A DNA stretch of 64,000 nt from Eledone cirrhosa. Lineage: Eukaryota. The number at the start of each line of letters is the position of its first letter. Positions within the stretch are counted from its first letter, which is position 1. Location of the stretch: positions 122,698,001 through 122,762,000 of the forward strand of contig OZ024742.1 in assembly GCA_964016885.1 (NCBI GenBank), written 5' to 3'. The position numbers and the translations under genes are program-made. The notes under the pieces are model-generated. The model made no database searches, had not been told where the DNA came from, and saw only the letters and a list, made by a program, of their open reading frames with translations. Shown here one piece after another: positions 1-60,819 of the stretch.

Positions 1-3000
1 TGTCTCACCTATGTATGTTGTTGTCATGTTTCTGCAAGTACCCTCTGTACATCTTATGCTATAGACTACGTTTCTAGTTTTACAGTTTATCCGGGGGTTC
101 ACCTTACATATGATACATTTCCTATTGGTACAGTGGGTTTTCTTAAAAGGGTAGGTTTTGCTGATCAGGGATTTTATGGTGGTTCCTGGCTTTTCTACCA
201 CCTTTATTTTTAAGTGGGTCTTTCTCAGGACCTTTCAACTGGTTAGCTAATTTCCCTCCAGGGGTGGCGTCCACAAACATGACACTCTGGTATCTCTGGT
301 TGTCGTACCATGATGTGGCTTTCCCTATCTTATGTCTAGCCCTATCTAAGTTATTCCATGATTTGCTCCTGTATAATGGGCAAATTCCTTAGATGTCCAG
401 TTCTATGAGGGTCTTATACTTTTCCATGGCTCCTTCGTATACTCTGACTCTGTCTCTTTGGTTGTAGCCAGAGAACTGCATGCGGTTGATGAAGTGTTGG
501 ATGTGTCTTTCCATTTCTGTTGGGTCGCACATGCGGGACACATTCTTCATCACTCGTACCAAATCTGCGATCAGAATATTAAACTTAGCACTACTGGACA
601 TTGCTAAGTTTTTGAGTATCAGGTATTTGGAGGCCATGGGTTTAGCATAGTGTGAGTGGAGAATTTGGGCTCGCTCGTCTATAGTGTTAATCCAGAGTTC
701 TGTGTCTAATACAGGTAGTCTATTGTTAGGGTGTTTGGAAGGGAAGTCGATAGTTACAGTTATACTCTGGTGTATGGAATTAGCTATCTGCTGGATGCTT
801 TCCATCGTGCTACGTTCTAAATCAAACTTGTTAGTACTCTCTAGTGGGGGTGTTCTTATAACTATATTGATATCGTCTACATAACGAGAGTACATGATGA
901 GGTTTATGGAGCTTTCATTAAGGAGATCTTTAAGTCTCCTTTCCCACCATACCATGAAAAGGTTGGCAATATCACCAGCTATGCTGACGCCGATGGCTGC
1001 TCCCTCATTTTGAGTGTAGATTTTCTCATTGAACTTAAATATGTGGCCCTTTAGTGTAGTTTTGATACTAGCCACTATTGCATGTGCGACCATTTCTCTT
1101 ACCTGATCATTGTTTTGGGGGGTCCGTATATCTTTGGTCCACCCAATCCACCTTCCCATGGGAGTCTTTTTTGCCATTGAGGTTATGGTGTGGGTGTCTA
1201 CCTCTGATAAGTCTACTAGGGCAGAAACATCTAAGGTCATGGCTGTCTAGGTAGTCAGTGTCGTAGGTAAGTCTAAGTAGGAGGCCCAGTTCGTCTGTGT
1301 CGACGTCGCAGAACTCCACCTCACTCTCAATGATCATCTCCACACATCTTTTCACAGCAAAATCAATGTTAATGGATGGGTACAGTGACACCACATCCAT
1401 GCTGCCTATTATGCAGTTGGATAGGCTCCTGTTTTTGTTGCACTCACTGATTCTGCTGAGGAGGTCCTCTGCACTGTCACATACATCTGGGGACATCTTG
1501 ATTATGGGGCGTATAACCATTGAGAGGAAGTAGGAGATCCTGTAGTTGCTAGCTATATTAGCTCCGCATACGGGTCTTGTTGGTGGTTCTGTTGTCGGGT
1601 CGTCGACTGTCTTGTGGTCTTTGCGGAGCCCATACAAGGGTGGTATGCCATTGTTAGTCGCCTGGAAGTTGTTGGCAGTGCGTCTGCTTGGCTTTAGGAT
1701 GTCATTCCATATCATCATGTGAGCGTTGAGGATTTTTTCTCTCCCATCGTGTGTTTGTTGTGCAATTTCGCTCGTGTTGGGGATGTGGGGTTGCATAGCC
1801 TCGATGTAGTTCGGCATGCTATCTATTGACATCCTACCAGACTTATCTGTGGGTAGACACACTACCTCACGATCCCTTGTGCGCTGCTTGAGGCTAACCA
1901 TGCCTTCTACAGGTTTCCTCCCAAGTTGTTGGGCCTCTGGTCTGCTCTGTCTCTTAGTATACCTGTCTACTATTTGTCTAATCTTATTTCTAGCTATGGT
2001 GAACTGTGCCTCTGTCTCGTCATCTATTTGTTGTGGTATGCAAACTCTTTTATTAAAGGGTAACCTCGTAGGATAGATATTACCCATCTTATATGTTTTG
2101 TCAGCTGGGTTGAAAAATAGTTTCTCTAAGGGGTTGTCATTATATCTATCGTCATAGTTGTGTGTGTTGCTATTGTTGTTATCAGGGTGGTTGTTGTTGT
2201 TTCTATCATTAGCATTATTATTATTGTTATGAATGCTAGATGTATTGTTGTTTACTTCACCGTTATTGTTGTTGTTGTTACTGTTATTTCTACCATTGTG
2301 CTTGTTACTTTTATTATGTTTCTTGTTTTTGTTGTGTCTATCATTGATGTTGCTACATGTACTATTTCCATTATTACCACTGTGGTTATTGTTATTGTTG
2401 TTCGTATTGTTACCGTTATTACTACTGTAGTCGCTGTTGCTGTGTCTGTGGTTAATGTTTCTATTATTATTATTATTGTGGTTGTTGTTGTTCTGTCTAT
2501 CGCTAGTATTATTAACATTATCACTATTTCTCACTTTCCTGTTATTGTTATGGTTATGGCTGTTATTTCTATACCCAGAGTTGTTGTTTATATTACTACT
2601 ACCGTTATTATTGTTGTTGTTGTTTACCTTTGCATTCCAACATATTTTTGTGAAACACTTTTCCAGCTCCGTTTTGCACTCCATAGGGTTAATCTTTTTG
2701 TAGATGGCAAATTTTGGTGGTAACCGTAGGATTTGTTGTTCTTGTTCACTGATTAAAGTGTTCCCATAGATATTTACTGTGTGGTCATTGGTAAATTCAT
2801 CCGGTAGTTTTACATCAGTCATACGGATATTGTCGATGTTATCTGGGTATTTTAGAGAATATTCGATTTTCCTTTCTTGTAGTTTTTTCTTATTCATCCA
2901 TTCTAATTTCTTCTTGAAATGCCTATTGCATTCGTTTCGAGCGTATTTCGTTTCACGTTGGATGGCGCTCATGAAGTTATCTCTCTCGTTTGCTGTGATG

Positions 3001-3218
3001 AGATTTCGGATATCCTTACCGTTAATGCGTTTCTGTCTGTAGAGTGCGTTGAATTTTGTGTATGTTGTTCTTTTCATATTAACTGTTATTGTGTGTTTTA
3101 GTCGTCCGGCTTGTGTTTTGTTCAATAATAAATTATTTACTTGTTTTGATATGTTTGTTGTGTATGTTTTGGAGGAAACACGGTGTTTTAAGAAGCGGAT
3201 TTGTTCTGTTGTTATTGT
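1..3218 (-). mobile_element. Penelope-like retroelement family A, inverted arm (RT + start of GIY-YIG; runs off window start)
   Basis: ORFs 1107..3314 and 389..1240 carry RT motifs (LPTDKSG, LYGLRKDHK, SMDVVSLYPSI, GAAIGVSIAG, RYVDD). Reverse complement of 3219-6310. Confidence 0.93.
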
Positions 3219-6200
3219 CTCATCACAGCAAACGAGAGAGATAACTTCATGAGCGCCATCCGACGTGAAACGAAATACGCTCGAAACGAATGCAATAGGC
3301 ATTTCAATAGGCATTTCAAGAAGAAATTAAAATGGATGAATAAGAAATACGCTCGAAACGAATGCAATAGGCATTTCAATAGGCATTTCAAGAAGAAATT
3401 AGAATGGATGAATAAGAAAAAAACTACAAGAAAGGAAAATCGAATATTCTCAAAAATACCCAGATAACATCGACAATATCCGTATGACTGATGTAAAACT
3501 ACCGGAAGAATTTACCAATGACCACACAGTAAATATCTGTGGGAACACTTTAATCAGTGAACAAGAACAACAAATCCTACGGTTACCACCAAAATTTGCC
3601 ATCTACAAAAAGATTAACCCTATGGAGTGCAAAACGGAGCTGGAAAAGTGTTTCACTAAAATACGTTGGAATGCAAAGGTAAACAACAACAACAATAATA
3701 ACGGTAGTAGTAATATAAACAACAACTCTGGATATAGAAATAACAGCCATAACCATAACAATAGCAGGAAAGTGAGAAATAGTGATAATGGTAATAATAC
3801 TAGCGATAGACAGAACAATAACAACCACAATAATAATAATAATAATAGAAACATTAACCACAGACACAGCAACAGCGACCACAGTAGTAATAACGGTAAC
3901 AATACGAACAACAACAACAATAACCACAGTGGTAATAATGGAAATGGTACATGTAGCAACATCAATGATAGACACAACAAAAACAAGAAACATAATAAAA
4001 GTAACAACCACAATGGTAGAAATAACAGTAACAACAACAACAATAACGGTGAAGTAAACAACAATACATCTAGCAATCATAACAATAATAATAATGCTAA
4101 TGATAGAAACAACAACAACCACCCTGATAACAACAATAGCAACACACACAACTATGACGATAGATATAATGACAACCCCTTAGAGAAACTATTTTTCAAC
4201 CCAGCTGACAAAACATATAAGATGGGTAATATCTATCCTACGAGGTTACCCTTTAATAAAAGAGTTTGCATACCACAACAAATAGATGACGAGACAGAGG
4301 CACAGTTCACCATAGCTAGAAATAAGATTAGACAAATAGTAGACAGGTATACTAAGAGACAGAGCAGACCAGAGGCCCAACAACTTGGGAGGAAACCTGT
4401 AGAAGGCATGGTTAGCCTCAAGCAGCGCACAAGGGATCGTGAGGTAGTGTGTCTACCCACAGATAAGTCTGGTAGGATGTCAATAGATAGCTGCCGAACT
4501 ACATCGAGGCTATGCAACCCCACATCACCAACACGAGCGAAGTTGCACAACAAACACACGATGGGAGAGAAAAAATCCTCAACGCTCACATGATGATGTG
4601 GACTGACATCCTAAAGCCAAGCAGACGCACTGCCAACAACTTCCAGGCGTCTAACAATGGCATACCACCCTTGTATGGGCTCCGCAAAGACCACAAGACA
4701 GTCGACGACCCGACAACAGGACCACCAACAAGACCCGTATGCGGAGCTAATATAGCTAGCAACTACAGGATCTCCTACTTTCTCTCAATGGTTATACGCC
4801 CCATAATCAAGATGTCCCCAGATGTATGTGACAGTACAGAGGACCTCCTCAGCAGAATCAGTGAGTGCAACAAAAACAGGAGCCTATCCAACTGCATAAT
4901 ATGCAGCATGGATGTGGTGTCACTGTACCCATCCATTAACATTGATTTTGCTGTGAAAAGATGTGTGGAGATGATCATTGAGAGTGAGGTGGAGTTCTGC
5001 GACGTCGACACAGATGAACTGGGCCTCCTACTTAGACTTACCTACGACACTGACTACCTAGACAGCCATGACCTTAGATGTTTCTGCCCTAGTAGACTTA
5101 TCAGAGATAGACCCCCACACCATAACCTCAATGGCAAAAAAGACTCCCATGGGAAGGTGGATTGGGTGGACCAAAGATATACGGACCCCCCAAAACAATG
5201 ATCAGGTAAGAGAAATGGTCGCACATGCAATAGGGGCTAGTATCAAAACTACACTAAAGGGCCACATATTTAAGTTCAATGAGAAAATCTACACCCAAAA
5301 TGAGGGAGCAGCCATCGGCGTCAGCATAGCTGGTGATGTTGCCAACCTTTTCATGGTATGGTGGGAAAGGAGACTTAAAGATCTCCTTAATGAAAGCTCC
5401 ATAGACCTCATCATGTACTCTCGTTATGTAGACGATATCAATATAGTTATAAGAACACCCCCACTAGAGAGCACTAACAAGTTTGATTTAGAACGTAGCA
5501 CGATGGAAAGCATCCAGCAGATAGCTAATTCCATACACCAGAGTATAACTGTAACTATCGACTTCCCTTCCAAACACCCTAACAATAGACTACCTGTATT
5601 AGACACAGAACTCTGGATTAACACTATAGACGAGCGAGCCCAAATTCTCCACTCACACTATGCTAAACCCATGGCCTCCAAATACCTGATACTCTAAAAC
5701 TTAGCAATGTCCAGTAGTGCTAAGTTTAATATTCTGATCGCAGATTTGGTACGAGTGATGAAGAATGTGTCCCGCATGTGCGACCCAACAGAAATGGAAA
5801 GACACATCCAACACTTCATCAACCGCATGCAGTTCTCTGGCTACAACCAAAGAGACAGAGTCAGAGTATACGAAGGAGCCATGGAAAAGTATAAGACCCT
5901 CATAGAACTGGACATCTAAGGAATTTGCCCATTATACAGGAGCAAATCATGGAATAACTTAGATAGGGCTAGACATAAGACAGGTAAAGCCACATCATGG
6001 TACGACAACCAGAGATACCAGAGTGTCATGTTTGTGGACGCCACCCCTGGAGGGAAATTAGCTAACCAGTTGAAAGGTCCTGAGAAAGACCCACTTAAAA
6101 ATAAAGGTGGTAGAAAAGCCAGGAACCACCATAAAATCCCTGATCAGCAAAACCTACCCTTTTAAGAAAACCCACTGTACCAATAGGAAATGTATCATAT

Positions 6201-6581
6201 GTAAGGCGAACCCCCGGATAAACTGTAAATCTAGAAACGTAGTCTATAGCATAAGATGTACAGAGGGTACTTGCAGAAACATGACAACAACATACATAGG
6301 TGAGACAGCTCGTAGCATAGGTGAAAGGATAGACCAACACTGGGGGGGAACTAAAAGGACGAAAAAACGGGTCAGTACTATACGAACATGCTAGACAACA
6401 ACATGAAGGTAACATAGACAACATAGAAATTAGAATAATATCTAAACATAGAAATGACCCGGCAGATAAGCAAATCAGAGAGGCCAGTGAAATAGAAATT
6501 AGAAGACCAAAGCTAAACAGAAAGAATGAATGGAATAACAACAACACCCAAACAAACAACACTGACCTAAGAGAAGTATAA
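3219..6581 (+). pseudogene. PLE RT/GIY-YIG polyprotein, frameshifted, with Asn-rich N-terminal insert
   Basis: ORFs 3484..4593, 4512..5201, 5068..5697, 5707..5919 and 6107..6394 are consecutive pieces of one protein; compare the less disrupted copy at 17046-18930. Confidence 0.9.
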
Positions 6582-6813
6582 ATAAGTAAATAAAATAAGA
6601 TAAATAAATACATACACAAGCACAATAACAACAAGCACATAAACACACACTAGTCACCCATCACAAAGCAAATAAAACACTATACACACACGCAAACGCA
6701 TGCGCAAAGAAGACAAAATAAAATAAACAAACAAGCAAATAAATAAATAAATATATAGACAGACTGAATAAAAAATGGCGTAGACATACAACACAACAGG
6801 AGGAAAATATAAC

Positions 6814-6855
6814 ACCACTGACGATGTTGCAGATGTGCAACGAAAGATTTATGAT
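6814..6855 (+). ncRNA. Minimal type I hammerhead motif, PLE family A pLTR
   Basis: acca-CTGACGA-t-gttgca-gatg-tgcaac-GAAA-gatt-TA-tgat; stem I is weak with a C.A mismatch. Confidence 0.7.
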
Positions 6856-16148: not shown

Positions 16149-17048
16149 TTCGTTTCTGAATTTGTTTAGCAAGATTCTTTATCTGAAATCGTGTGTTGAA
16201 ACCGATATTGTTATACTTTGGGAGGGTCATGTTGCCAATAAGAAGCACACGCGCCAGTTGCTTTCACTTCAATATATTATATATTTATAAATTTACAAAT
16301 CTATAAATTTATAAATTTCTGGTTGGTTGGTTGGTTCCACAACCAGATAGTTGTTTATATATAGTCATAGTTCTTTCGTCACACACTCTGTGACCTCTTC
16401 AGTGGCTGGGGACTCCTTTCTTTGTTTCTGTGCCTCTCCTTTGTTCTGTCCTACGCCATTTTGTTTCTCTGTGTGTGTTGTGTGCTCAGTCTGCGCATGC
16501 GCCACATCCGGGTGTCTATGTGTGTTTATGTTGATTTATCTATTTGTTAATTTACATGTTACTGGTTGGTTGTTTGTTCTATGTGTGTGTGTGTTTTCAT
16601 TTTGTCCTTAATTGTAAGGTGTGATGTTGCTATTCCACTCATATTTTCTATTTAATTTTGGTTGTAATTCTATTATGTTTATTGCCTCTGTGATTTGTCT
16701 AAACATTGCGTCTTTTCTGTGTGTAGATTCTATTTTTATTTCTATGTTCTCTAATTTACCCTTGTGTTCTATCTTAGCATGTTGGTAGAGTACAGATGAT
16801 ACTTTATTATCTTGAAGGTCTCGCCAGTGTTCATTTATCCGATCCCCTACACTACGAGCTGTCTCACCTATGTACACTATATTTTTGTCTCTACATTGTC
16901 CTTCAGTACATCTTATGCTATACACTACATTTCTAGTTTTACAGTTAATATGGGGGCTTATTTTACAGGTTATACATTTCTTATCTATACATGAGGGTCT
17001 TTGAAAAGGGTATGTCTTGCTAATAAGTGTTTTTACGGAGGTACCAGT
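16148..17048 (-). mobile_element. PLE family B 3' part (GIY-YIG + pLTR + tail)
   Basis: ORF 16608..17108: CIDKKCITC, NVVYSIRC, YIGETARS, RQITEA, LNRKYEW. Tail reads [22 protein letters not shown]. Confidence 0.9.
16363..16407 (-). ncRNA. Minimal hammerhead motif, family B
   Basis: agcca-CTGAAGA-g-gtcaca-gagtg-tgtgac-GAAA-gaac-TA-tgact. Confidence 0.72.
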
Positions 17049-19409
17049 CGACGACCCGACAACAGGACCACCAACAAGACCCGTATGCGGAGCTAATATA
17101 GCTAGCAACTACAGGATCTCCTACTTCCTCTCAATGGTTATACGCCCCATAATCAAGATGTCCCCAGATGTATGTGACAGTACAGAGGACCTCCTCAGCA
17201 GAATCAGTGAGTGCAACAAAAACAGGAGCCTATCCAACTGCATAATAGGCAGCATGGATGTGGTGTCACTGTACCCATCCATTAACATTGATTTTGCTGT
17301 GAAAAGATGTGTGGAGATGATCATTGAGAGTGAGGTGGAGTTCTGCGACGTCGACACAGACGAACTGGGCCTCCTACTTAGACTTACCTACGACACTGAC
17401 TACCTAGACAGCCATGACCTTGGATGTTTCTGCCCTAGTAGACTTATAAGAGGTAGACCCCCCACCATAACCTCAATGGCAAAAAAGACTCCCATGGGAA
17501 GGTGGATTGGGTGGACCAAAGCTATACGGACCCCCCAAAACAATGATCAGGTAAAACAAATGGTCGCACATGCAATAGGGGCTAGTATCAAAACTACCCT
17601 AAAGGGTCACATATTTAAGTTCAATGAGAAAATCTACACCCAAAATGAGGGAGCAGCCATCGGCGTCAGCATAGCTGGTGATGTTGCCAACCTTTTCATG
17701 GTATGGTGGGAAAGGAGACTTAAAGATCTCCTTAATGAGAGCTCCATAGACCTCATCATGTACTCTCGTTATGTAGACGATATCAATATAGTTATAAGAA
17801 CACCCCCACTAGAGAGCACTAACAAGTTTGAATTAGAACGTAGCACGATGAAAAGTATCCAGCAGATAGCTAATTCCATACACCAGAGTATAACTGTAAC
17901 TATCGACTTCCCTTCCAAACACCCTAACATTAGACTACCTGTGTTAGACACAGAACTCCGGATTAACACTATAGACGAAAGAGCCCAAATTCTCCACTCT
18001 CACTATGCTAAACAAATGGCCTCCAAATACCTGATACTCAAAAACTCAGCAATGTCTAGTAGTGCTAAGTTTAATATTCTGATCGCAAATTTGGTACGGG
18101 TGATGAAGAATGTGTCCCGCATGTGCGAACCAACAGAAATGGAAAGACACATCCAACTCTTCATCAATGGCATGCAGATCTCTGGCTACAACCAAAAAGA
18201 CAGAGTCAGAGTATACGACGGAGCCATGGAGATGTATAAGCCCTCATAAAACTGGATATGAAAGGAATTTGCCCATTATACAGGAGCAAATCATGGAATA
18301 GTTTAGATAGGGCTAGACATAAGATAGGGAAAGCCACCTCATGGTACGACAACCAAAGATACCAGAGTGTCATGTTTGTGGACGCTACCCCTGGAGGGAA
18401 ATTAGCTAACCAGTGTAGAAAGGTGCTGAGAAAGACCCACTTAAAAATAAAGGTGGTAGAAAAGCCAGGAACCACCATAAAATCCCTGATCAGCAAAACC
18501 TACCCTTTTAAGAAAACCCACTGTACCAATAGGAAATGTATCATATGTAAGGTGAACCCCCGAATAAACTGTAAAACTAGAAATGTAGTCTATAGCATAA
18601 GATGTACAGAGGCTACCTGCAGAAACATGACAACAACATACATAGGTGAGACAGCTAGTAGCATAGGTGAAAGGATAGACCAATACTGGGGGGGGAACTA
18701 GAAGGACGAAAAAACGGGTCAGTACTATACGAACATGCTAGACAACAACATGACGGTAACATAGACAACATAGAAATTAGAATAATATCTAAACATAGAA
18801 ATGACCCAGCAGAAAGGCAAATCAGAGAGGCCAGTGAAATAGAAATTAGAAGACCAAGGCTAAACAGAAAGAATGAATGTAATAACAACAACACCCAAAC
18901 AAACTACACTGACCTAAGAGAAGTATAAATAAGTAAATAAAATCAAATAATTAAATAAATAAATAAATACATACACAAGCACAATAACAACAAGCACATA
19001 AACACACACTAGTCACCCATCACACAGCGAACAAAACTCTATACACACACGCAAACGCATGCGCAAAGAAGTCATAATAAAATAAACAACAAGCAAAATA
19101 AATAAATAAATATATAGACAGACTGAATAAAAATGGCGTAGACATACAATACAACAGGAGGTTAATATAACACCACTGACGATGTTGCAGATGTGCAATG
19201 AAAGATTTATGATAAACTATATATATGTGTTTGTGTCTATATTGTATCTGTATTATTTTTGACCGTCGGTCAGTCAATGGCATCATTGAGGACCGAGTAA
19301 GTTAGATTACAGATATAAAAGACAGCGAGAAGCGAAAACCAACCAAACAGTGAGTGTGTTCTGTTATTAATTCTGGCAATATTACACAAATATGACCCTC
19401 CCCAAGTAT

Positions 19410-19415
<6 letters not shown>
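17046..19415 (+). mobile_element. PLE family A, 5'-truncated (RT core, GIY-YIG, pLTR)
   Basis: ORFs 17017..18249 and 18258..18701; closely similar to 4699-7052. Confidence 0.95.
19172..19213 (+). ncRNA. Minimal hammerhead motif, family A
   Basis: acca-CTGACGA-tgttgcagatgtgcaat-GAAA-gatt-TA-tgat. Confidence 0.65.
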
Positions 19416-19495
<80 letters not shown>

Positions 19496-19602
19496 AAATA
19501 TTGCGTCTCTGCAAAGAAATACGGTTTTAGGAAGCCATAGCTATGAAAACACCGGGGTTGGCTGACGCCCTCTGCTGATGTCTAGCAGAAGTATGGGGGA
19601 CA

Positions 19603-19646
19603 ACCGTCTATGCATTTCAGGCTTAACTGGCCATCATCAGGACGGT
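19603..19646 (-). ncRNA. Minimal type I hammerhead
   Basis: accgtc-CTGATGA-t-ggc-cagttaa-gcc-t-GAAA-tgca-TA-gacggt. Confidence 0.88.
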
Positions 19647-19917
19647 CCCTCCCACCGCTTGCGACTAATGGACAGGGGAGAATATATAGTTTTCTTGTCT
19701 GTGTAAACGAGCTGATTAAATTAATTTGCATATTGAGCTGTATAAGTTGGCTCAACTTATAATAAAAAAGAAATAGGATTTCGCTTCAAGCATAGCTTTA
19801 TACGATATGTATAAATATTTCGTATCTCGAAAGAAATACGTTTTGAGTAAGCTGTAGCTATGCAAACACCGGGGGGCTAACGCCCTCTGGTGATGTCGAG
19901 CAGAAGCAAGGGGGACA

Positions 19918-19960
19918 ACCGTCTATGTATTTCGGGCTTAACTGGCCATCGTCAGGACGC
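19918..19960 (-). ncRNA. Minimal type I hammerhead (second unit)
   Basis: cgtc-CTGACGA-tggccagttaagccc-GAAA-taca-TA-gacg. Confidence 0.8.
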
Positions 19961-20002
19961 CCCCCCCCTATATATATATATATATATAAATATATATATA
20001 TA

Positions 20003-20290
20003 TGTAGAGGTTATATTTAATTTGTTGGGATACAAAAAGCAAAATATTTTATAACTGATATAAAACACTCAACAAATTATTGTAGTAAATATACAATATA
20101 TTAACAAATGGAAACTATATTTATAAAACCATATTTATTTCATTATACATATTTCAAGGTCCACCAAGGCAAATTATGGTGCGCTTTCATCAGATAAAAT
20201 ATAATATAGGTTAGTTTTATAAATAAATACCCTGTACATACCCTGAAAAAATGCAACAATTCTGGTTGGAATCTCCAGGAGATTCCAAAG
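20003..20290 (-). mobile_element. 3' pLTR fragment of the PLE family found at 45400-48197
   Basis: Reverse complement of 47920-48197. Confidence 0.8.
20136..20201 (-). ncRNA. Type I hammerhead
   Basis: tattttat-CTGATGA-aagcgcacca...tggtggacctt-GAAA-tatgta-TA-atgaaata. Confidence 0.8.
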
Positions 20291-24574: not shown

Positions 24575-24692
24575 GGAGGACATGATATGAAGGTTAAAAA
24601 CACTTGTGGATAGTGCAGTTTTAAATCAACATATATGTTGATTTAAAACTGCACTATCCACAAGTGTTTTTAACCTTCATATCATGTCCTCC

Positions 24693-28412: not shown

Positions 28413-30331
28413 GATTGGACGGCCAGCTGCATGTCTTCCCAGCTGTCTCAGTAAAGAGTTTATCTTTTCATATACTGAGGGCGGCTGGCTTTGGGCCCGT
28501 CTTCAGAGGCTGGATCGTTGCCATGCACAGCGACATCTGCTCTGTGGTGAGAGTGAACGGTCACCTTTCGGAACCGTTCAACATCATGCGCTCGGTCTGC
28601 AAAGGATGTCCCCTCTCGTCTCTCTTGTAGGTATAGACTGTCGAGCTATTACTGCACAAACTGGAGACTTTGAGGGGCGTCCCGCACGAACTACGATGCG
28701 GAAGATCCGTGTCAGCTTATGCGGACGATGTCACCGTAGTGGTGTCGAACGCTAAACACATCGAGGCGATCGGCACTACACTAAGAGAATACGAAGCGGT
28801 GACAGGAGCAATGATCAACCAGGAAAAGTCAGTGGGCATGGAGCTCGGCACCTGGAGAGGCAGGTCCATGCCGTCCAACAGCGTCGTCGGACGCTGGACG
28901 GACGGACCGGTTAATTGCTAGGGGTCTGGTTCGGTCCGGACCTCCAGACGGACAAAAACTGGGACGAGGTGACGAGCAGGGTGGCTTCTCTCACCCAGAA
29001 ATGGGCCGAGAGGAAGCTATCCCTGAAAGGTCGAGCGGACGTGGCCAACGCGTACATCGCGTCTGTCATCTGCTACCGCCTGACCGTCGTACCTTGTCCT
29101 AAGCCCCGCCTGACTGCGATGAAGCGTTTGCTCTTCGCTTTTTGTAGAAGGGACGCGCTCCGATGGTCAGGCGCTCCATCTGCTGTCAACACCCGCCACG
29201 TGGAGGGCTGGGAATGCCGTGGCTGATGATGCGCAGACACGCGCTCAGGCTACGACATCTCCACCTCTTCCTCGACGGTGATCAGGTGTGGTCGCCGTTT
29301 GCTAGACACGTATTTCCCCAGCTCGTTTCCTTGCCGGAGCTGCAGTCCTGGGTCAAGCGAAGACCGAGAGAGAGCGCCTGGAGACTGGAATGTCTTCAGG
29401 CGCTCACAGCCCTCGACCAATCGGGCAATGTGATCGGTGGAAACTCCACCTCGGCGTTCTATAGCGGATTAGTGGAAAGGAAGAACGATGACGTACTTGG
29501 GGAAACTCTAGGCGTCGACGAAAATCAACTAGCCAATCTCTTCGGAAGAACTTTCGGGCCGGGACCTGTGGACAACTTCCAGAAATCTCTGGCCTGGCTG
29601 TGCTACCGAGGAGCCTTGCCAGTACGGGATAAACTCTACAGGCATGGAGGTGCCGCCAGCCGGGCATGTCCGAGATGCGCGCAGGGCGACGAAACCGTCC
29701 TGCACGCACTCGTCCAGTGTCCGAAATTTGCTGACTTGTGGGTTTATGTCGAACACCTGTTGTCGCGTGTAGGACGGATCCGGCTATCATCTGAGTCCAT
29801 CGTGAGGATTGACCCGCCCTCTTCCTTTAGCCGGGAAGGGCAGGCAGTGTTTATCTGTCTGGTGGCCATGGCGAAAGAGATAGTAAGGTGGACACGTTTG
29901 AAAGGGCTGAAGACGAGCACTTACCTCTTCGGTGATGCCCTGATTGACTTTTTTAAATTTCATTTGAAAAGCCAAATCAGAGTAGAGAGCGAGGTGCTCT
30001 CTTCCCAGCATTTTGTTGAAAGATGGGTGAGAGAAGCACGAATGGCCCGAGTGAATGGGTCTACTCTGAGTATGTGTCTGTAAATTAAAAGTGGAAAACT
30101 GGGAGAGGGCACGTGCCTTGGTGGTCAGGGTCACTGTGGCCTTTTACTGGGCTTTCTCCACAAATGTCCCTGCGAAGTTTCCCCCCTATTGGGGAATTTT
30201 CATTGTTATTTTTTTGTTACATCCTCTGTTTTTGTTTTTTACACGCAGAAATTCCCATTTGTACCGTTCTGTATTGTCCTGCACTGTCCTTAATGTCTAC
30301 TTTATGTAAACCCTTGTGGTTAATAAAGAAA

Positions 30332-38795: not shown

Positions 38796-40895
38796 TACAC
38801 ACACACACACATACATATACGTATATATACATACACACATATATCTACACACACATATATATATATATATATATAAAAAATAAATAAATACACACAGTCA
38901 GACAATTATGCACATATATACACATACATACACACATCTCTACAAATACATATACATACACATACATACATACACATATATATACATGTATATATGTATA
39001 CATATATATATATACACTCATACACACTTATTTACATGTGCACATATGTATTTTTATACTCACATACAAACACACAAACATACATACATACTTACATACA
39101 CATACATACATCCACACTTACAAATACGCATAATTATAGGGGGGGGGGATTAACATTATTAGTGGGAAATAGTAAATATAGGTTTCAAGGAGCATAGAAT
39201 ATTAATCTGCATTTAAATCATAATATGTGTTTACATAGTAGTGTCAGAAAGAAGGCAAAATTATGCATTTTAATATAAGTAGACTATTAATTATAGGTTA
39301 ATTAAAGTAAAAATAGTTAATATATTAATTTCTAAGGTGTATACTACTTAGGTTTATAATATTTAAAGCGGAATTTTTGAAGTTAAACAGTAGTAGAGTA
39401 TTAATTATAGCATAACTAAATTAAAAATATTAACATGATGGTATCAATTTTAGGAAATGAATTTAGTAATAGGGAAAGCCAAATCAAGTATTTCATCGGT
39501 AGTAGAATATTAATTATAGGTTAACTAAATTAAAAATTATATATTAATTTCTATAGTATATGTTAATTAGGTTTATAATAATTAAAGCAAATTTTGTATT
39601 TTATCTATAGTAGAATATAATTATAGGTTAACTAAAATTAAAATTAATCTCTATATTTATTTGTAAAGAATATATTAATTAGGTATATATTTAAAAGTTT
39701 TTCTCAGTTTATGATTACATGATATTCTGCAATCCATCTATATTAGAATTTTAATTTTAAGCTAACTAAATTAAAATTATAGGTTAACTAAATTAAAATT
39801 AATTTATAAATTAATTTCTAAATTGTACATTAATTAGGTTTATAATATTAAAAAGTATTTCTCTGTTATTGATTACACGATATTTTGTTATATTTCATCT
39901 GTAAAGGAATTTTAATAAAAGGTTAAATAAACTAAAATTAATCTATAAATTAATTTCCAAAGTATATCAATATATACTTTGGAAATTAATTATGTTAATA
40001 ATATTTAAAAGTTTTTCACAATTTATGATTACACAATATTTTTTAAAATTCATCTGTAGTAGAATTTTAATTAAATTAAAATTATAGGTTAACTACATTT
40101 AAATTAAATTATATATTAATTTCTAAAATATATATTATTAATTAGGTTTATAATATTTAAATGTTTTTCTCAGTTTATGATTACACGGTATAATTAATTC
40201 CTGTCGCTTATTTAATAGGATATCCTTAGATTTCATTATTTCAAATAGTTCTTGGGAACACAATCTACATTCATTTCTATTATTTTGATAAGGGGTGGCT
40301 CTTTTGAGCACACTCCAGGTCATATCATATTCTATATTCTTATTTCTATAACTATTAATTTTTTCTGCTAGAGATGTTGTATTAGCCAGTGCGGCATTTT
40401 TAAAACTATGTTTGTGGGTATTAAACCTTACCTTAAAATTGTTAGAAGTAGCTCCTATATATGAGCAAACAGAATCTTTAGTTTTAACTTTACATTTATA
40501 AACTATGTTGTTAACAAGACAATTTCCTTTTAATGGGCAGTTTGCTTTGTTTCTACAGTTACAACCTTTCGTTAATTCTGTATTTGAGGAGATATTATGG
40601 TTAGTTTGATGTATTGGTGGTATACTTATGTTTTTTTTTACATTTATATGCATTATAAGCACTTATATTTTGTTTTATGTTTTTGGTTGTTGAGTATGAG
40701 AATTTAACTGTTGATCTATTTAAGATTTGATGGTATTTGTGGTTTGGCGGGAAGTTTTTCTCTAGGATATTAAAAAATTTTTTAGCAATATTATCCTTAA
40801 TTTGTAAATTAAATGGAGCATTATACCAAGTAACTCGTCTATTACGGTTTCTATGTTGTTTATTGTTTTTATAGGATGCATCGTGATGTTTACTA
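37565..40895 (-). mobile_element. Hydra-clade-like PLE, inverted arm (GIY-YIG + 3' UTR)
   Basis: ORF 40138..40662 (CNCRNKANCPLKGNC, YIGATSNNFKVRFNTH); reverse complement of 41910-45229. Confidence 0.92.
37765..37917 (-). ncRNA. Type I hammerhead with about 114-nt stem II
   Basis: Reverse complement of 45014-45166. Confidence 0.8.
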
Positions 40896-43775
40896 AAACA
40901 CTTCCCAGGTAATTAACTGGTTTAAAAATATTAGATGTAAATCTTCTGCTTCATTTCTACAATTTGATACAGATAATTACTATACTTCTATATCACCTAT
41001 ACTCCTGAACAAAGCTTTGATATTTGCTAAAAATAGATCCAACTTAACTTTGGATGACATTAATATTATTACACATGCTAGACTAACACTTATTGAATTT
41101 CAGAATGAATACTGGACCAGAAACACATATAGTAATCTATTTGATATTACTATGGGTTCAAGCGATTCTGCCCAAATTACTGATCTTGTGGGCCTCTTTC
41201 TTCTTTTTAACATAAATGCTTCCTTTCCCCACCTTAAAGGTGATTTATATCGTGATGACTGTCTTCTTCTTTCCAACAACCTTAGCCTCTCAGAAATAGA
41301 AAAAAACAAAAAGCTTATTAGAACTTTCCTTAAAGACTATTATAGTCTTCATATTACTTTTGAAAACACAAGTAAAGTAGTTAATTTCCTAGATATAACT
41401 TTAGACTTAGATACGGGTATCTACCAACCTTACCATAAACCCAACCAAAACTTACACTACATACACTCACAATCTAATCACCCTAAATCTATCCTTAAAA
41501 ACCTTGCATATAATATATCACTTAGAATTTCTAACCTTTCGTCTAACCAAGATGTATTTGATAAAAATGCGACCTTCTATAACGAAGCTCTAGCTAGAAG
41601 TGGCCACAAAAATAGATTGGAATATATACCTTCTACTAATAACACTATAAACATACAACCTAATATTACCAACAAACACCAAATGAAAAGTACACACCTA
41701 AATGCCACTCACACTATACCCCAAAATACCAACATAAAACCAATTTTCTCTAACTCCTCTAATATAAAGTATAGTAACTCTCAACAAACTACTCATCATA
41801 CAACTCTAATAAATGTTAATAATAAAACTCCTAATAAACAAGATAAAACACCTAAATCAATAAATCTAACTAAAAATGTGCGTGGTGAGGTCATTAACAT
41901 TAATCCTCCTAGTAAACATCACGATGCATCCTATAAAAACAATAAACAACATAGAAACCGTAATAGACGAGTTACTTGGTATAATGCTCCATTTAATTTA
42001 CAAATTAAGGATAATATTGCTAAAAAAATTTTTAATATCCTAGAGAAAAACTTCCCGCCAAACCACAAATACCATCGAAATCTTAAATAGATCAACAGTT
42101 AAATTCTCATACTCAACAACCAAAAACGTAAAACAAAATATAAGTGCCTATAATGCATATAAATGTAAAAAACCCATAAGTATACCACCAATACATCAAA
42201 CTAACCATAATATCTCCTCAAATACAGAATTAACGAAAGGTTGTAACTGTAGAAACAAAGCAAACTGCCCATTAAAAGGAAATTGTCTTGTTAACAACAT
42301 AGTTTATAAATGTATAGTTAAAACTAAAGATTCTATTTGCTCATATATAGGAGCTACTTCTAACAATTTTAAGGTAAGGTTTGATACCCACAAACATAGT
42401 TTTAAAAATGCCGCACTGGCTAATACAACATCTCTAGCAGAAAAAATTAATTGTTATAGAAATAAGAATATAGAATATGATATGACCTGGAGTGTGCTCA
42501 AAAGAGCCACCCCTTATCAAAATAATAGAAATGAATGTAGATTGTGTTCCCAAGAACTATTTGAAATAATGAAATCTAGGGATATCCTATTAAATAAGCG
42601 ACAGGAATTAATTATATCGTGTAATCATAAACTGAGAAAAACATTTAAATATTATAAACCTAATTAATAATATATATTTTAGAAATTAATATATAATTTA
42701 ATTTAAATGTAGTTAACCTATAATTTTAATTTAATTAAAATTCTACTACAGATGAATTTTAAAAAATATTGTGTAATCATAAATTGTGAAAAACTTTTAA
42801 ATATTATTAACATAATTAATATATACTTTGGAAATTAATTTATAGATTAATTTTAGTTTATTTAACCTTTTATTAAAATTCCTTTACAGATGAAATATAA
42901 CAAAATATCGTGTAATCAATAACAGAGAAATACTTTTTAATATTATAAACCTAATTAATGTACAATTTAGAAATTAATTTATAAATTAATTTTAATTTAG
43001 TTAACCTATAATTTTAATTTAGTTAGCTTAAAATTAAAATTCTAATACAGATGGATTGCAGAATATCATGTAATCATAAACTGAGAAAAACTTTTAAATA
43101 TATACCTAATTAATATATTCTTTACAAATAAATATATAGATTAATTTTAATTTTAGTTAACCTATAATTATATTCTACTATAGATAAAATACAAAATTTG
43201 CTTTAATTATTATAAACCTAATTAACATATACTATAGAAATTAATATATAATTTTTAATTTAGTTAACCTATAATTAATATTCTACTACCGATGAAATAC
43301 TTGATTTGGCTTTCCCTATTACTAAATTCATTTCCTAAAATTGATACCATCATGTTAATATTTTTAATTTAGTTATGCTATAATTAATACTCTACTACTG
43401 TTTAACTTCAAAATTCCGCTTTAAATATTATAAACCTAAGTAGTATACACCTTAGAAATTAATATATTAACTATTTTTATTTTAATTAACCTATAATTAA
43501 TAATCTACTTATATTAAAATGCATAATTTTGCCTTCTTTCTGACACTACTATGTAAACACATATTATGATTTAAATGCAGATTAATATTCTATGCTCCTT
43601 GAAACCTATATTTACTATTTCCCACTAATAATTTTACCCCCCCCCCCCCCTATAAATTATTCGTATTTGTAAGTGTGGATGTATGTATGTATATGTAAGT
43701 ATGTATGTATGTTTGTGTGTTTGTATGTGAGTATAAAAATACATATGTGCACATGTAAATAAGTGTGTATGAGTG

Positions 43776-45399: not shown

Positions 45400-46981
45400 T
45401 ACAATATATTAACAAATGGAAACTATATTTATAAAACCATATTTATTTCATTATACCGGAGATGACCGGAGGTTTATATCGCGACAATATGCTATTACTT
45501 ATAGAAAATAATAATAACTGTGAAATAAATAGGAAAAGAAAAGAAATTATATAATTGTTTAATTACCTTAATCTTAAAGTAGAAATAGAGAATAATTATA
45601 AAATAGGTAACTTTCTAGATGTAACTTTAAACCTTAACACAGATCTTTATTATCCATTTCACAAAATAAACGAGAACTTAAACTACGTTAATTTTAATTC
45701 CAATCATCCCAGATCCGTTAAAAACACTATAGTAAACTCTGTGCAGCAACGTATTTCTAGAATTTCAGCTAATAAGAATATTTTTGAAGATAAAGCGCAA
45801 TATTATAACGAAGCGTTAGCTAGAGCTGGATATAGTAATAAAATTAAATACATTGATAATAATGATATGACAAATAACCATCATTTTAACAACTATAATA
45901 GAAAACCTTACAGTAATTCGAAAAACAAAAAAAAAGAAATAGAACAAGGAATATATTATGGTTTGCTCCTCCTTTCTCATTAAGTATTAAAACTCCTATT
46001 GCTAAATTATTCTTTAAAGCTCTAGATAAATGCTTCCCTAGAACACATAGGTATTACCCAATATTTAATAGACATACTATAAAATTAACGTATTCAACCA
46101 CCAGTAATTTAGCGTAGAATATTAATAGAATTAATAATAGAAACTTAAAACCTAACCAGAATACCATTAATAACCCCAGCAATATCCAACTGAATAATAC
46201 AGTTCATAGAAACTTAAATTTTGATAAATGTAACTGTAGAATAAATCTAACTGTCCGTTAAATAACAATTGTTTAGTTAAAAATATAGTATATAATTGTA
46301 ATGTAAAAACTAATTTAAATTCATTTAATTACGTGGGCTCTACCTCCACAGATTTTAAGTCCCGTTTTAATAACCATAAATGCTCTTTTACGAATATAAA
46401 TAAAAAATCTTCAACTTCTCTATCTAATTTACTATGGGACCTAAAATCAAAGAACAGTAACTATTCTTTACTTTGGAATATTATCTCCAAAGCTTCTCCA
46501 TTCAATGATTCTTCTGATAATTGTGCTCTTTGTATAGAGGAAATATTCTTTATATTAAAAAGTAAGAATTCTGTTAATTTAAGGAATAATCTTTTCAGTT
46601 CTTGCAAACATAGATTGAACTCAACGTTTAAATATATATATAAAATGTAATACATAACTCATCTTTATTAAACCTATCGATAATTCATTAGATTCCTTCA
46701 TATGACTGCTTATGACTCTCTTAAAAGAAAACATTTTTCTTGAAAACCTTTCTTGATAAACGTACTGAAAGATTAGAAGAAGGATGTTTTGAAAATTCCT
46801 ATGATGGGTATAAGGAAATAATAATTCATAATTCATATTTTATACTGTGTATTTTATTTTCTATATTCTTATATTTTAAAAAATTATAATCAAATTTAAA
46901 ATTATAATAAAATTATAATTTTTAAAATTATAATTCATATTTTATATTGTATATTTTATATTTATGTATTTTTCAAATGCT

Positions 46982-53992: not shown

Positions 53993-55810
53993 CACCGTGT
54001 AACAAAAAAATTATTTTTCTCTGTTCCTGGTTTGTAATCACTTTTTTTGTGTTGCTTAGGTCCCAAATAAATTTAAAAAATTGCTATTAAACAGTTAAAA
54101 GTTTGGGTTTGTAAAAATTCTAAATTATTCACTAGAATTATTTGTATGCCAGTTGGGGACCAGGACAAGCCCTGGGCGGAAAGAAAAGAATGCTGCTGAT
54201 GTAGATTATCCAAATCTTCCATCATCAATTGCTCCAATTCCTCACTGCACCAAATATCCCGTGCCAGTGCCACCTGCTCCAGATGAAGTCCAAGACAAGT
54301 ATTATGATGAAGAGGAGGAGATGGATGCTGAGGACTTGGATTACCTGTCTGAGGTACCAGAAAAAGTTCCTCACTTCCCAAACCAAAAAGAAGTCAATGG
54401 CTTGGTCAGGTATATGGGTCTGACCAAGTCCAATGCAGAGCTATTCGTCTCCAGGATGAAGCAGTGGAACTTGGTCAAGGAGGAAGTGCAGGTGACAAGT
54501 CAGAGAAGTCGACACGAACCTTTCTCAGGCTTTTAGCGATGGCCTCTGCTTCTGCCATGACGTGCCTGGACTGTTTGACGTTATTGGGGTGCCGTTTGTG
54601 CCCAAGGAGTGGCGGCTATTTATAGACAGCTCCACCACAAGTTTGAAGGCTGTCCTCCTCCACAATGGAAACAAGTTCCCGACACTGCCCCTAGCTCATT
54701 CAGTCTGCCTGAAGGAAGATTACTACAGTGTGAAAGTCCTCTTGGAAGCTCTGCAATACAACCAGTACAACTGGGAAATCATTGGAGACTTCAAGATGGT
54801 GGCTTTCCTGCTTGGACTCCAAGGAAGCTTTATTAAATTCCAATGCTTCCTCTACCTTTGGGACAGCGGAGCTACATCTGACCACTACAAAAGAAAGAAC
54901 TGGGAGCAGCGAACAGAATCTGTAGTTGGGACCCGGAACGTCGTGTGGGAGCCACTGGTTGATCCCAGGATTGTGCTCATGCCGCCACTGCACATTAAGT
55001 TGGAGTTGATGAAGCAGTTTGTGAAGGCTCTCAACCAAGAATCAGCCACTTTTAAGTACCTTCTTGATTTCTTCCCCAAGTTATCTGAGGCCAAAATTTA
55101 AAGGTGGAATTTTTGTTGGACCTCAGATAAAGAAGGTGTTTGAGTCTCCCGAGTTCTCCAATGAGCTCAATAGGATTGAGAGAACATCATGGAACTGTTT
55201 CAACTGTTAAGGGCTTCCTGGGCAACTACAGAGCTGAAAACTACTAGCAACTGGTGCAGGATATGTTAAAGGCTTTTGGTGCCATGTGATGCATGATGGT
55301 GCTTAAACTCCATATGCTTGACGCTCACCTCGAATAATTCAAGGACAATATGGGCGCCTACTCAGAAGGACAAGGCGAACGATTCCACCAAGATGTGAAA
55401 TAGATAGGATGGAGGTACCAGGGCCACTACAATGAAAAAGTGATGGGGGACTATATCTGGAGGCTAATGCGGGAATGCGACCTGGACTACAACCGCAAAT
55501 CCAGGAAATCCAGTCATTTCTGACGTGTATAAGTTGCTTTATAAGTGTTATTTGTTTTTACTTGTTTGCTTTTGATAAGCTTGTGTAATCAGATAAATAT
55601 ACATACACTCTGTTGATTTAACTATATGAACTGATACATTTTTAAAAAATGTGTTTTTTCTTGAAAAATATGAACATTTCGAAATATCAAACTCCTGACC
55701 ACAAACCCAAACTTCTGATTAAATAATAGTGTTTTTTTTTATAATAATGGGATATAAAAAACCAGTAAATGACACTTAGAACCGGGGAACCAAAAATATG
55801 TTACACAGTG
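53993..55810 (+). mobile_element. Chapaev3-type DNA transposon, decayed and lacking the N-terminal Zn finger
   Basis: CACCGTGTAACA...TGTTACACAGTG termini; YPNLPSSIAPIPH, EWRLFIDSS, KAVLLHNGN, PPLHIKL, GERFHQD. Confidence 0.85.
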
Positions 55811-60611: not shown

Positions 60612-60819
60612 ACGGATGAGTTGTGGTAAGGAACCAGAAGGACCATAACGCACCAGAGTACTCAATACTTAGGGTAGTAGAGTGGGTAATAGGAGAAAGT
60701 ATGACCCCGACGGCAGAGCTGAAGCCGTTTCGATGGCTATTTCTGAGATAAAGTCAGACTTTAGTCCAGAAATAGCCGTTGAAACGGCTTGAGCTCTGCC
60801 GTCGGGGTCATACTTTCTC
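60611..60819 (-). mobile_element. Second fold-back 3' end of the same family as 60035-60223
   Basis: Palindrome at 60693-60819. Confidence 0.6.

What the first reader, a model, noticed from the sequence alone, without database searches (positions are those of the whole stretch)
19490..19968. 315-nt tandem mini-retrozyme with octamer/TATA and CTCF-like motifs
Seen: two diverged units, each with a compact HHR (6-bp stem I and palindromic TGCA loop III in unit 1). On the HHR strand, ATGCAAAT (19724-19731) and TATATA (19683-19688) precede the ribozyme. Each unit has CGCCCTCTG(C/G)TGA (19566, 19881), resembling the CTCF consensus. The ribozyme is conserved while the flanks have drifted. Inference: a self-promoting small RNA element that could also disperse insulator-like sites.
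Basis: partly seen in the sequence, partly recalled or inferred. Interest (0 to 1): 0.7.

Follow-up and report, generated by a model that had tools for sequence, protein, structure and literature searches.

The report
Retrozyme with hybrid snRNA-type promoter
This is a decayed copy of a short, protein-less repeat found in thousands of copies in this animal's genome; it carries a hammerhead (predicted self-cutting RNA) motif behind DNA words that match the host's own small-RNA gene promoters, so it likely starts its own transcription and is likely pasted into TA repeats by Penelope-type jumping genes, while its CTCF-like word shows no sign of being kept by selection.

Summary
The motifs are present. 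The insert is 1.5 units (not two) of a ~323-bp family of about 3,000 units, with a type I hammerhead on the minus strand. Stems I and II change compensatorily between subfamilies. Family copies show the Penelope-like (PLE) signature: inverted two-arm inserts in (TA)n, with 3' ends at two sites about 45 nt apart (112 of 131 arms), usually one site per arm (36 of 40 pairs). The octamer is part of a 12-nt box found ahead of the host's top U6, U6atac, MRP and tRNA-Sec genes (7 of 7) and none of 19 U1/U2/U5/U11/U12/RNase P regions. The unit also has the word typical of U1/U2 genes at -57, so the promoter looks hybrid. Other repeat families share box + TATA + hammerhead core (17,935 matches, control 1). 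Not supported: 'ribozyme conserved, flanks drifted'. The CTCF-like word is a real match but decays neutrally, is one arm of an RNA hairpin and is absent from sister families. This copy cannot make a 315-nt circle from its own promoter. No RNA evidence was available. The scan noted the promoter-bearing retrozyme reading earlier on other DNA of this genome.

The parts
19490..19968 (-). Whole insertion: 1.5 head-to-tail units of a ~323-bp retrozyme family, single arm, 3' end running into (TA)n
19490..19806 (-). Full unit (317 bp; 8-bp deletion behind the TATA relative to the family majority; about 90% identical to other copies)
19807..19968 (-). 5'-truncated partial unit, beginning inside stem I of its ribozyme
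19603..19646 (-). Type I hammerhead 1: stem I 6 bp, CUGAUGA, stem II 3 bp with U.U at its base, GAAA, palindromic AUGCAU stem/loop III; predicted cut between 19609 and 19608
   Evidence: cleavage not tested
19918..19959 (-). Type I hammerhead 2, damaged (stem I 4 bp, U.C mismatch, UACA loop); predicted cut between 19924 and 19923
19721..19732 (-). Octamer-containing 12-nt box TATGCAAATTAA (family TATGCAAATGAG), matching the box 77-80 nt ahead of host U6, U6atac, MRP and tRNA-Sec genes
19711..19715 (-). TCAGC word 27 nt ahead of the TATA, where host U1/U2/U5/U12 genes have TCAGT/CCAGY
19681..19688 (-). TATA-like box TATATATT, 43 nt behind the ATG of the octamer (host U6-type genes: 46-48)
19764..19769 (-). 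T6 run at the second preferred 3' end (site B) of family arms; possible Pol III terminator, but absent at this place in subfamily A2
19490..19501 (-). First preferred 3' end (site A), joined to (TA)n
19565..19578 (-). CTCF-like word, copy 1 (2 of 14 mismatches to a recalled consensus); 5' arm of a predicted RNA hairpin
19880..19893 (-). CTCF-like word, copy 2 (2 of 14 mismatches)
19414..19489 (.). (TA)n target microsatellite at the 3' end, shared with the end of an adjacent Penelope-like element
19969..20003 (.). (TA)n at the 5' junction

Best explanation
The stretch is a decayed 1.5-unit copy of an abundant non-coding hammerhead repeat (non-LTR retrozyme) whose unit carries words matching the host's snRNA-type promoters; these likely drive transcription through the next unit, and the RNA is likely copied into (TA)n repeats by a Penelope-like element's enzyme. 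Steps: (1, shown) each unit holds box - YCAS word - TATA - hammerhead. (2, inferred, ~0.65) in the few copies about 1.4 units or longer this block starts transcription about 30 nt behind the TATA; I favour a Pol II snRNA-like read-through (0.55) over Pol III (0.35). (3, predicted) ribozymes in successive units cut, probably as dimers through the AUGCAU palindrome, freeing a ~323-nt monomer that contains the promoter and can be circularised, which lets an upstream-type promoter survive retrotransposition. (4, inferred from shown junctions, ~0.85) a PLE RT/GIY-YIG protein nicks AT-rich DNA and starts reverse transcription at two sites about 45 nt apart on the multimer or circle, giving inverted two-arm inserts with a 'tail' on one arm. 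(5) Most copies, this one included, lack a promoter followed by two cut sites and are dead ends. The CTCF-like word is likely a passenger in an RNA hairpin.
For: Family: 2,507 first-look candidates; 1,092 exact matches of a 24-mer, control 0; rough estimate ~3,300 units from 13 exact of 39 spanning segments; mean pairwise identity 95.7% among 37 units. Ribozyme: one stem I pair and three stem II pairs swap on both sides between subfamilies; 49 such cells vs 18.4+-6.1 shuffled, 0/500. PLE signature: of 131 arms in 76 loci, 56 end at site A and 56 at site B, windows covering 10.5% of the unit; 50 inverted pairs, 36 of the 40 with both ends at A/B have one of each (p=2e-7); in the 48 loci not picked for full length 68 of 81 and 20 of 23; 85 of 131 3' ends run into (TA)>=4. 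This matches the inverted copy and one-sided tail described for PLEs (PMC8557442 passages) and the two RT start sites shown in vitro (PMC11167929). Promoter: box in 7 of 7 chosen U6-type upstream regions, 0 of 19 others; YCAG word at -55..-58 in 16 of 18 Pol II snRNA regions, 0 of 7 U6-type, and a YCAS word in 9 of 11 retrozyme representatives. Box+TATA+CUGANGA with this family's majority excluded: 17,935 matches, control 1, from at least five further sequence types. 5' ends are scattered, with no peak at the predicted start (11 vs 8.1 expected) or the cut site (4 vs 8.1), and 67 of 131 arms cross the T-run: templates were multimers or circles.
Against: No transcription, cleavage or circle was observed. 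Box-to-TATA spacing is 43 (40-43 in most families) against 46-48 in host genes; only family C has 47. No host gene examined combines both words. 19 of 30 copies of subfamily A2 have C at the first TATA position (counted by eye). Within the family the box is only marginally better kept than background (14 vs 23 expected, p=0.057) and the TATA not at all. The box is absent at its place in 8 of 20 U6 loci (6 displaced by an insert, 2 lacking) and 7 of 8 U6atac loci, which I set aside as probable pseudogenes. The multi-family pattern search demands the box, so it cannot show how many hammerhead repeats lack it; seven other hammerhead-like motifs with long stem II or pLTR position in the window have no such box. 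The families may share ancestry, so they are not independent. Covariation rests on two subfamilies (about four events), and rows were picked by an intact core. Loci were picked by patterns in or near the ribozyme, which inflates arms crossing the cut site (109 of 131). No autonomous partner with matching ends was found in the window. Rfam finds no hammerhead.
Confidence: 0.7

Rival explanations
1. Pol III (U6-type) variant: the box and TATA recruit Pol III, giving a ~216-nt RNA from the predicted start to the T6 run, cut by the ribozyme into ~58 + ~158 nt; rare read-through supplies the multimers that transpose.
For: The box is specific to host Pol III type 3 genes (7 of 7 vs 0 of 19); the only T>=4 run of the main subfamily lies at 3' end site B; family C has exact U6 spacing; Schistosoma hammerhead repeats use Pol III (PMC6765202 passage).
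Against: Spacing 3-5 nt short; no excess of arms starting at the predicted +1 (11 vs 8.1); subfamily A2 ends at site B without a T-run there; the long helix closing stem I extends about 7 nt upstream of the predicted +1.
Confidence: 0.3
2. The promoter-like words are inherited remnants; RNA arises only by read-through from host or PLE promoters, as the current retrozyme model assumes.
For: Review statement that metazoan retrozymes seem to have no promoters (PMC7761336 passage); neutral decay of TATA and near-neutral decay of the box among copies; TATA variant in A2; only 2 of 131 arms hold promoter plus two cut sites.
Against: Box, YCAS word and TATA stay in fixed order and near-fixed spacing across sequence types whose spacers have diverged; 0 of 20,000 shuffles give box+TATA. 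Neutral decay is expected in dead copies, since selection acts on source copies.
Confidence: 0.2
3. The family is a CTCF-site disperser: inverted two-arm inserts place back-to-back (divergent) motif pairs that act as chromatin boundaries.
For: 2 of 14 mismatches in the main subfamily (9 of 300 shuffles as good), 1 of 14 in A2 (1 of 300; 1 of 1000 on the GC-rich part); 12 of 48 unselected loci hold a minus-then-plus pair 40-443 bp apart, 26 single or tandem sites, 10 none; precedent in mammals (PMC3368268, listing and abstract start only); CTCF arose in bilaterians and a CTCF-like motif is enriched at squid TAD borders (PMC10658181, PMC9023564 passages).
Against: No constraint among copies (62 vs 55.2, p=0.34); on the GC-rich part of the main subfamily 68 of 1000 shuffles match as well; 11 window sites match as well or better, 9 outside this element; 3 or more mismatches in 8 of 8 sister-family sequences; replaced by another hairpin in one divergent copy that keeps box, TATA and ribozyme (L253, single copy); the word is a hairpin arm. 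The motif was chosen after the fact, the consensus is recalled, and CTCF was not looked up in this genome.
Confidence: 0.12
4. A local DNA-level tandem duplication or satellite with chance motifs.
For: Microsatellite-rich window; Rfam silent.
Against: Dispersed on many contigs, longest arm 2.3 units, fixed 3' ends, ragged 5' ends, inversions, compensatory stems.
Confidence: 0.02

Closest known systems
Metazoan non-LTR retrozymes (Cervera and de la Pena 2020, PMC7229834: abstract, Introduction, Discussion, passages; Li, Clavereau and Pollet bioRxiv 10.64898/2026.07.22.740005: parts 1-3 of 5, abstract to Discussion)
   Same: ~300-bp ORF-less unit, type I hammerhead per unit, thousands of copies, U.U at the base of helix II as in axolotl HHR_Amex2, PLEs in the same genome and proposed as mobilisers.
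   Different: Mostly 1-2 units in dispersed inverted inserts. Carries host snRNA-type promoter words, which PMC7761336 says metazoan retrozymes seem to lack. Shows the PLE tail/inversion signature directly. Circular RNA not shown here.
Newt satellite 2 (Coats, Zhang and Epstein 1994: paper not held; title and one citing sentence seen in PMC2220036)
   Same: ~330-bp hammerhead repeat with an internal snRNA-type promoter, reported as Pol II.
   Different: Here the octamer box is the host's Pol III-gene word placed next to a Pol II-gene word and a TATA. That newt satellite 2 uses an octamer plus PSE is my recall, not seen in a call.
Schistosoma Sm-alpha hammerhead SINE-like repeats (PMC6765202 passage)
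   Same: Promoter followed by hammerhead; tandem copies needed for propagation.
   Different: Reported as Pol III-transcribed; here an upstream-type (U6/U1-like) promoter.
Penelope-like elements: pLTR, tail, inverted 5' copy (PMC8557442 passages; PMC11167929 main text parts 1-2 of 4)
   Same: Partial tandems, inverted arm, tail at one end only, microsatellite targets, palindromic short stem III.
   Different: No ORF; tail about 45 nt against 30-40; no sequence match to an autonomous pLTR found in the window.
Retrotransposon-dispersed CTCF sites in mammals (PMC3368268, listing and abstract start only)
   Same: A mobile repeat carrying a CTCF-like word in many copies.
   Different: No binding data, no sign of constraint, motif limited to one family.

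Membership tests
Non-LTR retrozyme | Type I hammerhead in each unit | tested here: met
   Core intact in 32 of 37 units; compensatory stems; Rfam gives no hit
Non-LTR retrozyme | Short (170-400 bp) ORF-less unit in head-to-tail copies | tested here: met
   323-bp unit; 60 of 131 arms longer than one unit, maximum 2.3; no ORF of 100 aa or more inside the insert apart from a frame running over the TA repeat
Non-LTR retrozyme | Self-cleavage and accumulation of monomeric circular RNA | not testable with these tools
   No RNA holder listed; approximate monomer (19614-19928) folds better than shuffles, z -3.46
Non-LTR retrozyme (Li et al. 'active' criterion) | Two consecutive units with complete hammerheads in this copy | tested here: not met
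   The upstream ribozyme is truncated and mismatched; met by other copies such as L005
Non-autonomous Penelope-like element | Partial tandems with inverted 5'-truncated arm and one-sided tail | tested here: met
   50 inverted pairs in 76 loci; 36 of 40 one-tail pairs
Non-autonomous Penelope-like element | AT-rich/microsatellite targets | tested here: met
   85 of 131 3' ends into (TA)>=4
Non-autonomous Penelope-like element | Sequence similarity to the pLTR of an autonomous PLE | tested here: inconclusive
   No match in the window, although RT and GIY-YIG ORFs lie next to it; no genome-wide partner search
Host U6-type (Pol III type 3) promoter | 12-nt octamer box upstream of a TATA | tested here: met
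   window copy differs at the last base
Host U6-type (Pol III type 3) promoter | Box-to-TATA spacing 46-48 nt | tested here: not met
   43 here; 47 only in family C
Host U1/U2-type (Pol II snRNA) promoter | YCAG word at -55..-58 and TATA at -30 | tested here: inconclusive
   TCAGC in the window copy, TCACC in the family majority; a 5-nt word is weak
Host snRNA promoters | Distal TTACCTCCCTT word near -260 | tested here: inconclusive
   3 of 11 mismatches at -260 in a dimer, inside an RNA helix, not constrained
Functional CTCF site | Match to consensus | tested here: met
   2 of 14 (A1) and 1 of 14 (A2) mismatches to a recalled consensus
Functional CTCF site | Constraint beyond background or across related families | tested here: not met
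Functional CTCF site | CTCF binding or insulation | not testable with these tools
   No ChIP, ATAC or Hi-C data available

The most novel reading that the evidence does not exclude
A clade of animal retrozymes has solved the problem of retrotransposing an upstream promoter: each circle carries a chimeric snRNA promoter (the host's Pol III-gene octamer box joined to its Pol II-snRNA word and TATA), is made by its own ribozyme, and is read by a Penelope RT from two start sites. In this family the inverted insertion geometry also stamps back-to-back CTCF motif pairs at hundreds of sites, a ready-made source of chromatin boundaries. The self-promoter part alone I put at 0.6, the CTCF-boundary part at 0.12.
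Probability: 0.12. Interest if true: 0.8.

Novelty: new variant of a known kind. Interest (0 to 1): 0.55.

Why it matters
Two questions on animal retrozymes are open: what transcribes them (a review says they seem to have no promoter, PMC7761336) and what mobilises them (PLEs are a candidate, PMC7229834; support so far is co-occurrence and pLTR similarity, bioRxiv 2026.07.22.740005). This family gives named words, positions and mutable sites for the first question, and junction-level evidence (one-sided tail, inverted arms, templates spanning promoter and cut site) for the second. It also gives this animal's snRNA promoter grammar, useful for U6-driven tools. Precedents exist (newt satellite 2, Sm-alpha), so it is a variant rather than a new class. 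Searches for a prior description found none for this hybrid layout in the held library.

Tried and rejected
Rfam scan of the window: no hammerhead family; AT-repeat miRNA hits are noise. Sequencing runs: no RNA holder listed; contigs of X1 and X4 laid on L005 show presence only, run type unknown; neither is evidence on expression. Excess of 5' ends at the predicted start or cut site: none. T6 as the cause of site B: weakened because A2 lacks it there. Distal promoter word at -260: weak and explained by an RNA helix. Private variants shared within loci: 17 of 446 between inverted arms, 5 of 165 between tandem units, 68 of 10,776 between loci; a modest excess that does not separate circle from linear multimer. 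Structure-first hammerhead scan of locus flanks: dominated by family B (21 of 22 with box), other types 0 of 6, 0 of 3, 0 of 3; too small and biased to use. Search for a subfamily lacking the CTCF-like word: one copy only. Co-fold of two left-hand ribozymes pairs the palindromes (-35.1 kcal/mol): compatible with dimers, not a test. Some pattern hits (L193, several C and D copies) have broken or no hammerhead stems. A regex count of A2 TATA states misfired and was not used. Autonomous partner, host lineage and presence of a CTCF gene were not established; 'octopus-like' comes from earlier AI notes. Coats 1994 was not held; bioRxiv supplements were not seen and could list promoter or junction features.

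Full report
Observation. The insert, 19490-19968 on the minus strand between two (TA)n tracts, is one full unit plus a half unit cut inside stem I of its ribozyme. Octamer and TATA therefore occur once, between the two ribozymes. The left ribozyme forms stems I and II and has a palindromic AUGCAU stem III; the right one is damaged. Unit-vs-unit identity is 39/44 in the ribozyme and 96/111 in the flanks (p=0.80), so the claim of drifted flanks fails. Rfam reports no hammerhead among 146 matches.

Family. A search of the own genome gave 2,507 candidates, 40 scored. Exact patterns gave 161 matches for the window-type ribozyme core and 1,092 for a 3' 24-mer, controls 0; about 3,300 units is a rough estimate. 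Thirty-seven full units are 95.7% alike and the window copy is about 90% like them; 34 of 37 keep the octamer, 34 the TATA, 28 the CTCF-like core and 32 the ribozyme core. An older subfamily, A2 (30 loci), differs by two-sided swaps in one stem I pair and three stem II pairs (49 cells vs 18.4 shuffled, 0/500, on 34 rows picked for an intact core). This is about four independent events, but it shows that source copies kept the fold.

Insertion signature. Of 90 loci fetched were dropped as the window itself or duplicates. In the remaining 76, 131 arms of 50 nt or more were mapped. Their 3' ends fall at two places: 56 at site A (unit end) and 56 at site B about 45 nt further, windows that cover 10.5% of the unit. 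Fifty loci-pairs are inverted with 5' ends joined; of the 40 with both ends at A or B, 36 have one of each (p=2e-7). In the 48 loci not chosen for full length the counts are 68 of 81 and 20 of 23. Eighty-five of 131 ends run into (TA)>=4. This is the inverted copy and one-sided tail described for Penelope-like elements (PMC8557442 passages), which in vitro work traced to two reverse-transcription start sites (PMC11167929). The window holds PLE-type RT and GIY-YIG frames (both Pfam hits just under the curated cut-off), but none shares sequence with the unit, so the partner is unidentified. 5' ends are scattered, 67 arms cross the T-run and 109 cross the cut site (the latter inflated by how loci were picked), so templates were multimers or circles that included the promoter region (inference).

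Promoter. I compared the unit with the host's own small-RNA genes. A 12-nt box TATG(C/G)(A/T)AAT(G/T)AG lies at -77 to -80, 46-48 nt ahead of a TATA near -30, in three U6 types, U6atac, MRP and two tRNA-Sec genes (7 of 7 regions chosen). It was in place in 12 of 20 U6 loci and 1 of 8 U6atac loci; the rest were displaced by an insert or lacked it and were set aside as probable pseudogenes; 3 weak tRNA-Sec hits and 5 further U5 array copies were not examined. None of 19 U1, U2, U5, U11, U12 and RNase P regions has the box; 16 of the 18 snRNA regions have a YCAG word at -55 to -58, which none of the 7 U6-type regions has. The retrozyme unit has the box (43 nt ahead of its TATA), TCACC or TCAGC at -57, and the TATA. 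Box plus TATA arose in 0 of 20,000 shuffles. A pattern of box, TATA and CUGANGA that excludes this family's majority base gave 17,935 matches against a control of 1; a narrower one gave 330. They come from a very abundant 430-500-bp family B and at least four more types, many with hammerhead stems, spacings 40-43 and, in family C, 47. The search demands the box, so it shows recurrence, not prevalence. Against: off-register spacing, no host gene with both words, C at the first TATA base in 19 of 30 A2 copies (by eye), and near-neutral decay of box (14 vs 23, p=0.057) and TATA among copies. Which polymerase is open. I lean to Pol II-like read-through because arms cross the T-run, A2 has no T-run at site B, no arms pile up at the predicted start, and newt satellite 2 is cited as Pol II with an snRNA promoter.

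This copy. Only 2 of 131 arms hold a promoter followed by two cut sites. The window copy does not: its promoter lies ahead of the last ribozyme only, has an 8-bp deletion behind the TATA and a changed last base of the box. A 315-nt circle would need outside read-through and the damaged ribozyme. It is most likely a dead insert.

CTCF-like word. Against a recalled 14-letter consensus it has 2 mismatches in the window and main subfamily (9 of 300 shuffles; 68 of 1000 on the GC-rich part) and 1 in A2 (1 of 300; 1 of 1000). Eleven window sites do as well or better. It decays like the rest of the unit (62 vs 55.2, p=0.34), is the 5' arm of a predicted hairpin, is missing from 8 of 8 sister-family sequences and is replaced in one divergent copy that keeps box, TATA and ribozyme. 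The inverted geometry does yield minus-then-plus pairs in 12 of 48 unselected loci, the boundary-type orientation (recalled convention). CTCF is reported as bilaterian and a CTCF-like motif as enriched at squid TAD borders, but I did not establish this host's lineage or CTCF gene. The insulator reading is possible, with no support beyond the sequence match.

Comparison and verdict. It works like, and at family level is, a metazoan non-LTR retrozyme (PMC7229834; bioRxiv 2026.07.22.740005) and behaves as a non-autonomous PLE. It differs in carrying host snRNA-type promoter words, which a review says such elements seem to lack, though newt satellite 2 and Schistosoma repeats are precedents. Earlier notes of this scan reached the promoter reading on other DNA of the same genome; I had formed it before looking and tested it here. 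New variant of a known kind; interest 0.55.

Noticed in passing
window 17005-19413 (+); related copies 389-6650 and 16608-17108: Penelope-like element with broken RT and GIY-YIG frames and a Cys-rich linker; its end abuts the same (TA)n. A hammerhead-like CUGACGA...GAAA without a clear stem III recurs in its terminal region at 6818, 14675 and 19176.
   Followed up: partly
window 20193(-), 20539(-), 24566(-), 24701(+), 32195(-), 36701(+): A second group of type I hammerhead motifs with AT-rich stem I and long stem II, without the octamer box upstream; two lie in the next TA tracts beside the finding.
   Followed up: partly
L161-L190 (G000 C1): Family B: 430-500-bp unit with box, TATA, hammerhead with palindromic ACUAGU stem III and an internal TA tract; arrays of up to six units; makes up most of the listed part of 17,935 matches.
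   Followed up: partly
L192, L195, L201, L218-L221: Family C: older, decayed hammerhead repeat with exact U6 spacing (47) and often a T-run about 40 nt behind the ribozyme; best candidate for a true Pol III element.
   Followed up: partly
L254 (G000 C24): The RNase P RNA gene has a U1/U2-type upstream region (TCAGT word, TATA, distal word) and no octamer box, which suggests Pol II transcription, unlike MRP.
   Followed up: no
L061-L130, L254-L268: Host promoter grammar: both snRNA classes have a TATA near -30, and many share a distal TTACCTCCCTT-like word at -257 to -288.
   Followed up: partly
L067, L068, L070-L073 (G000 C19 U6 array): 6 of 16 array copies fetched carry a ~190-bp insert that separates the promoter from the U6 gene.
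   Followed up: no
L092, L093: U6atac copies directly behind TA tracts, without promoter: probable retrocopies.
   Followed up: no
window 24590-24677 and 60696-60816: Long near-perfect hairpins that give false miRNA hits; the first lies between two opposed hammerheads and may be an inverted-arm junction.
   Followed up: no
window 28915-30083, 40138-42667, 45555-46650, 54099-55101: Further transposon-like ORF fragments, not classified (no Pfam hit for the two tested in 40897-42664).
   Followed up: no
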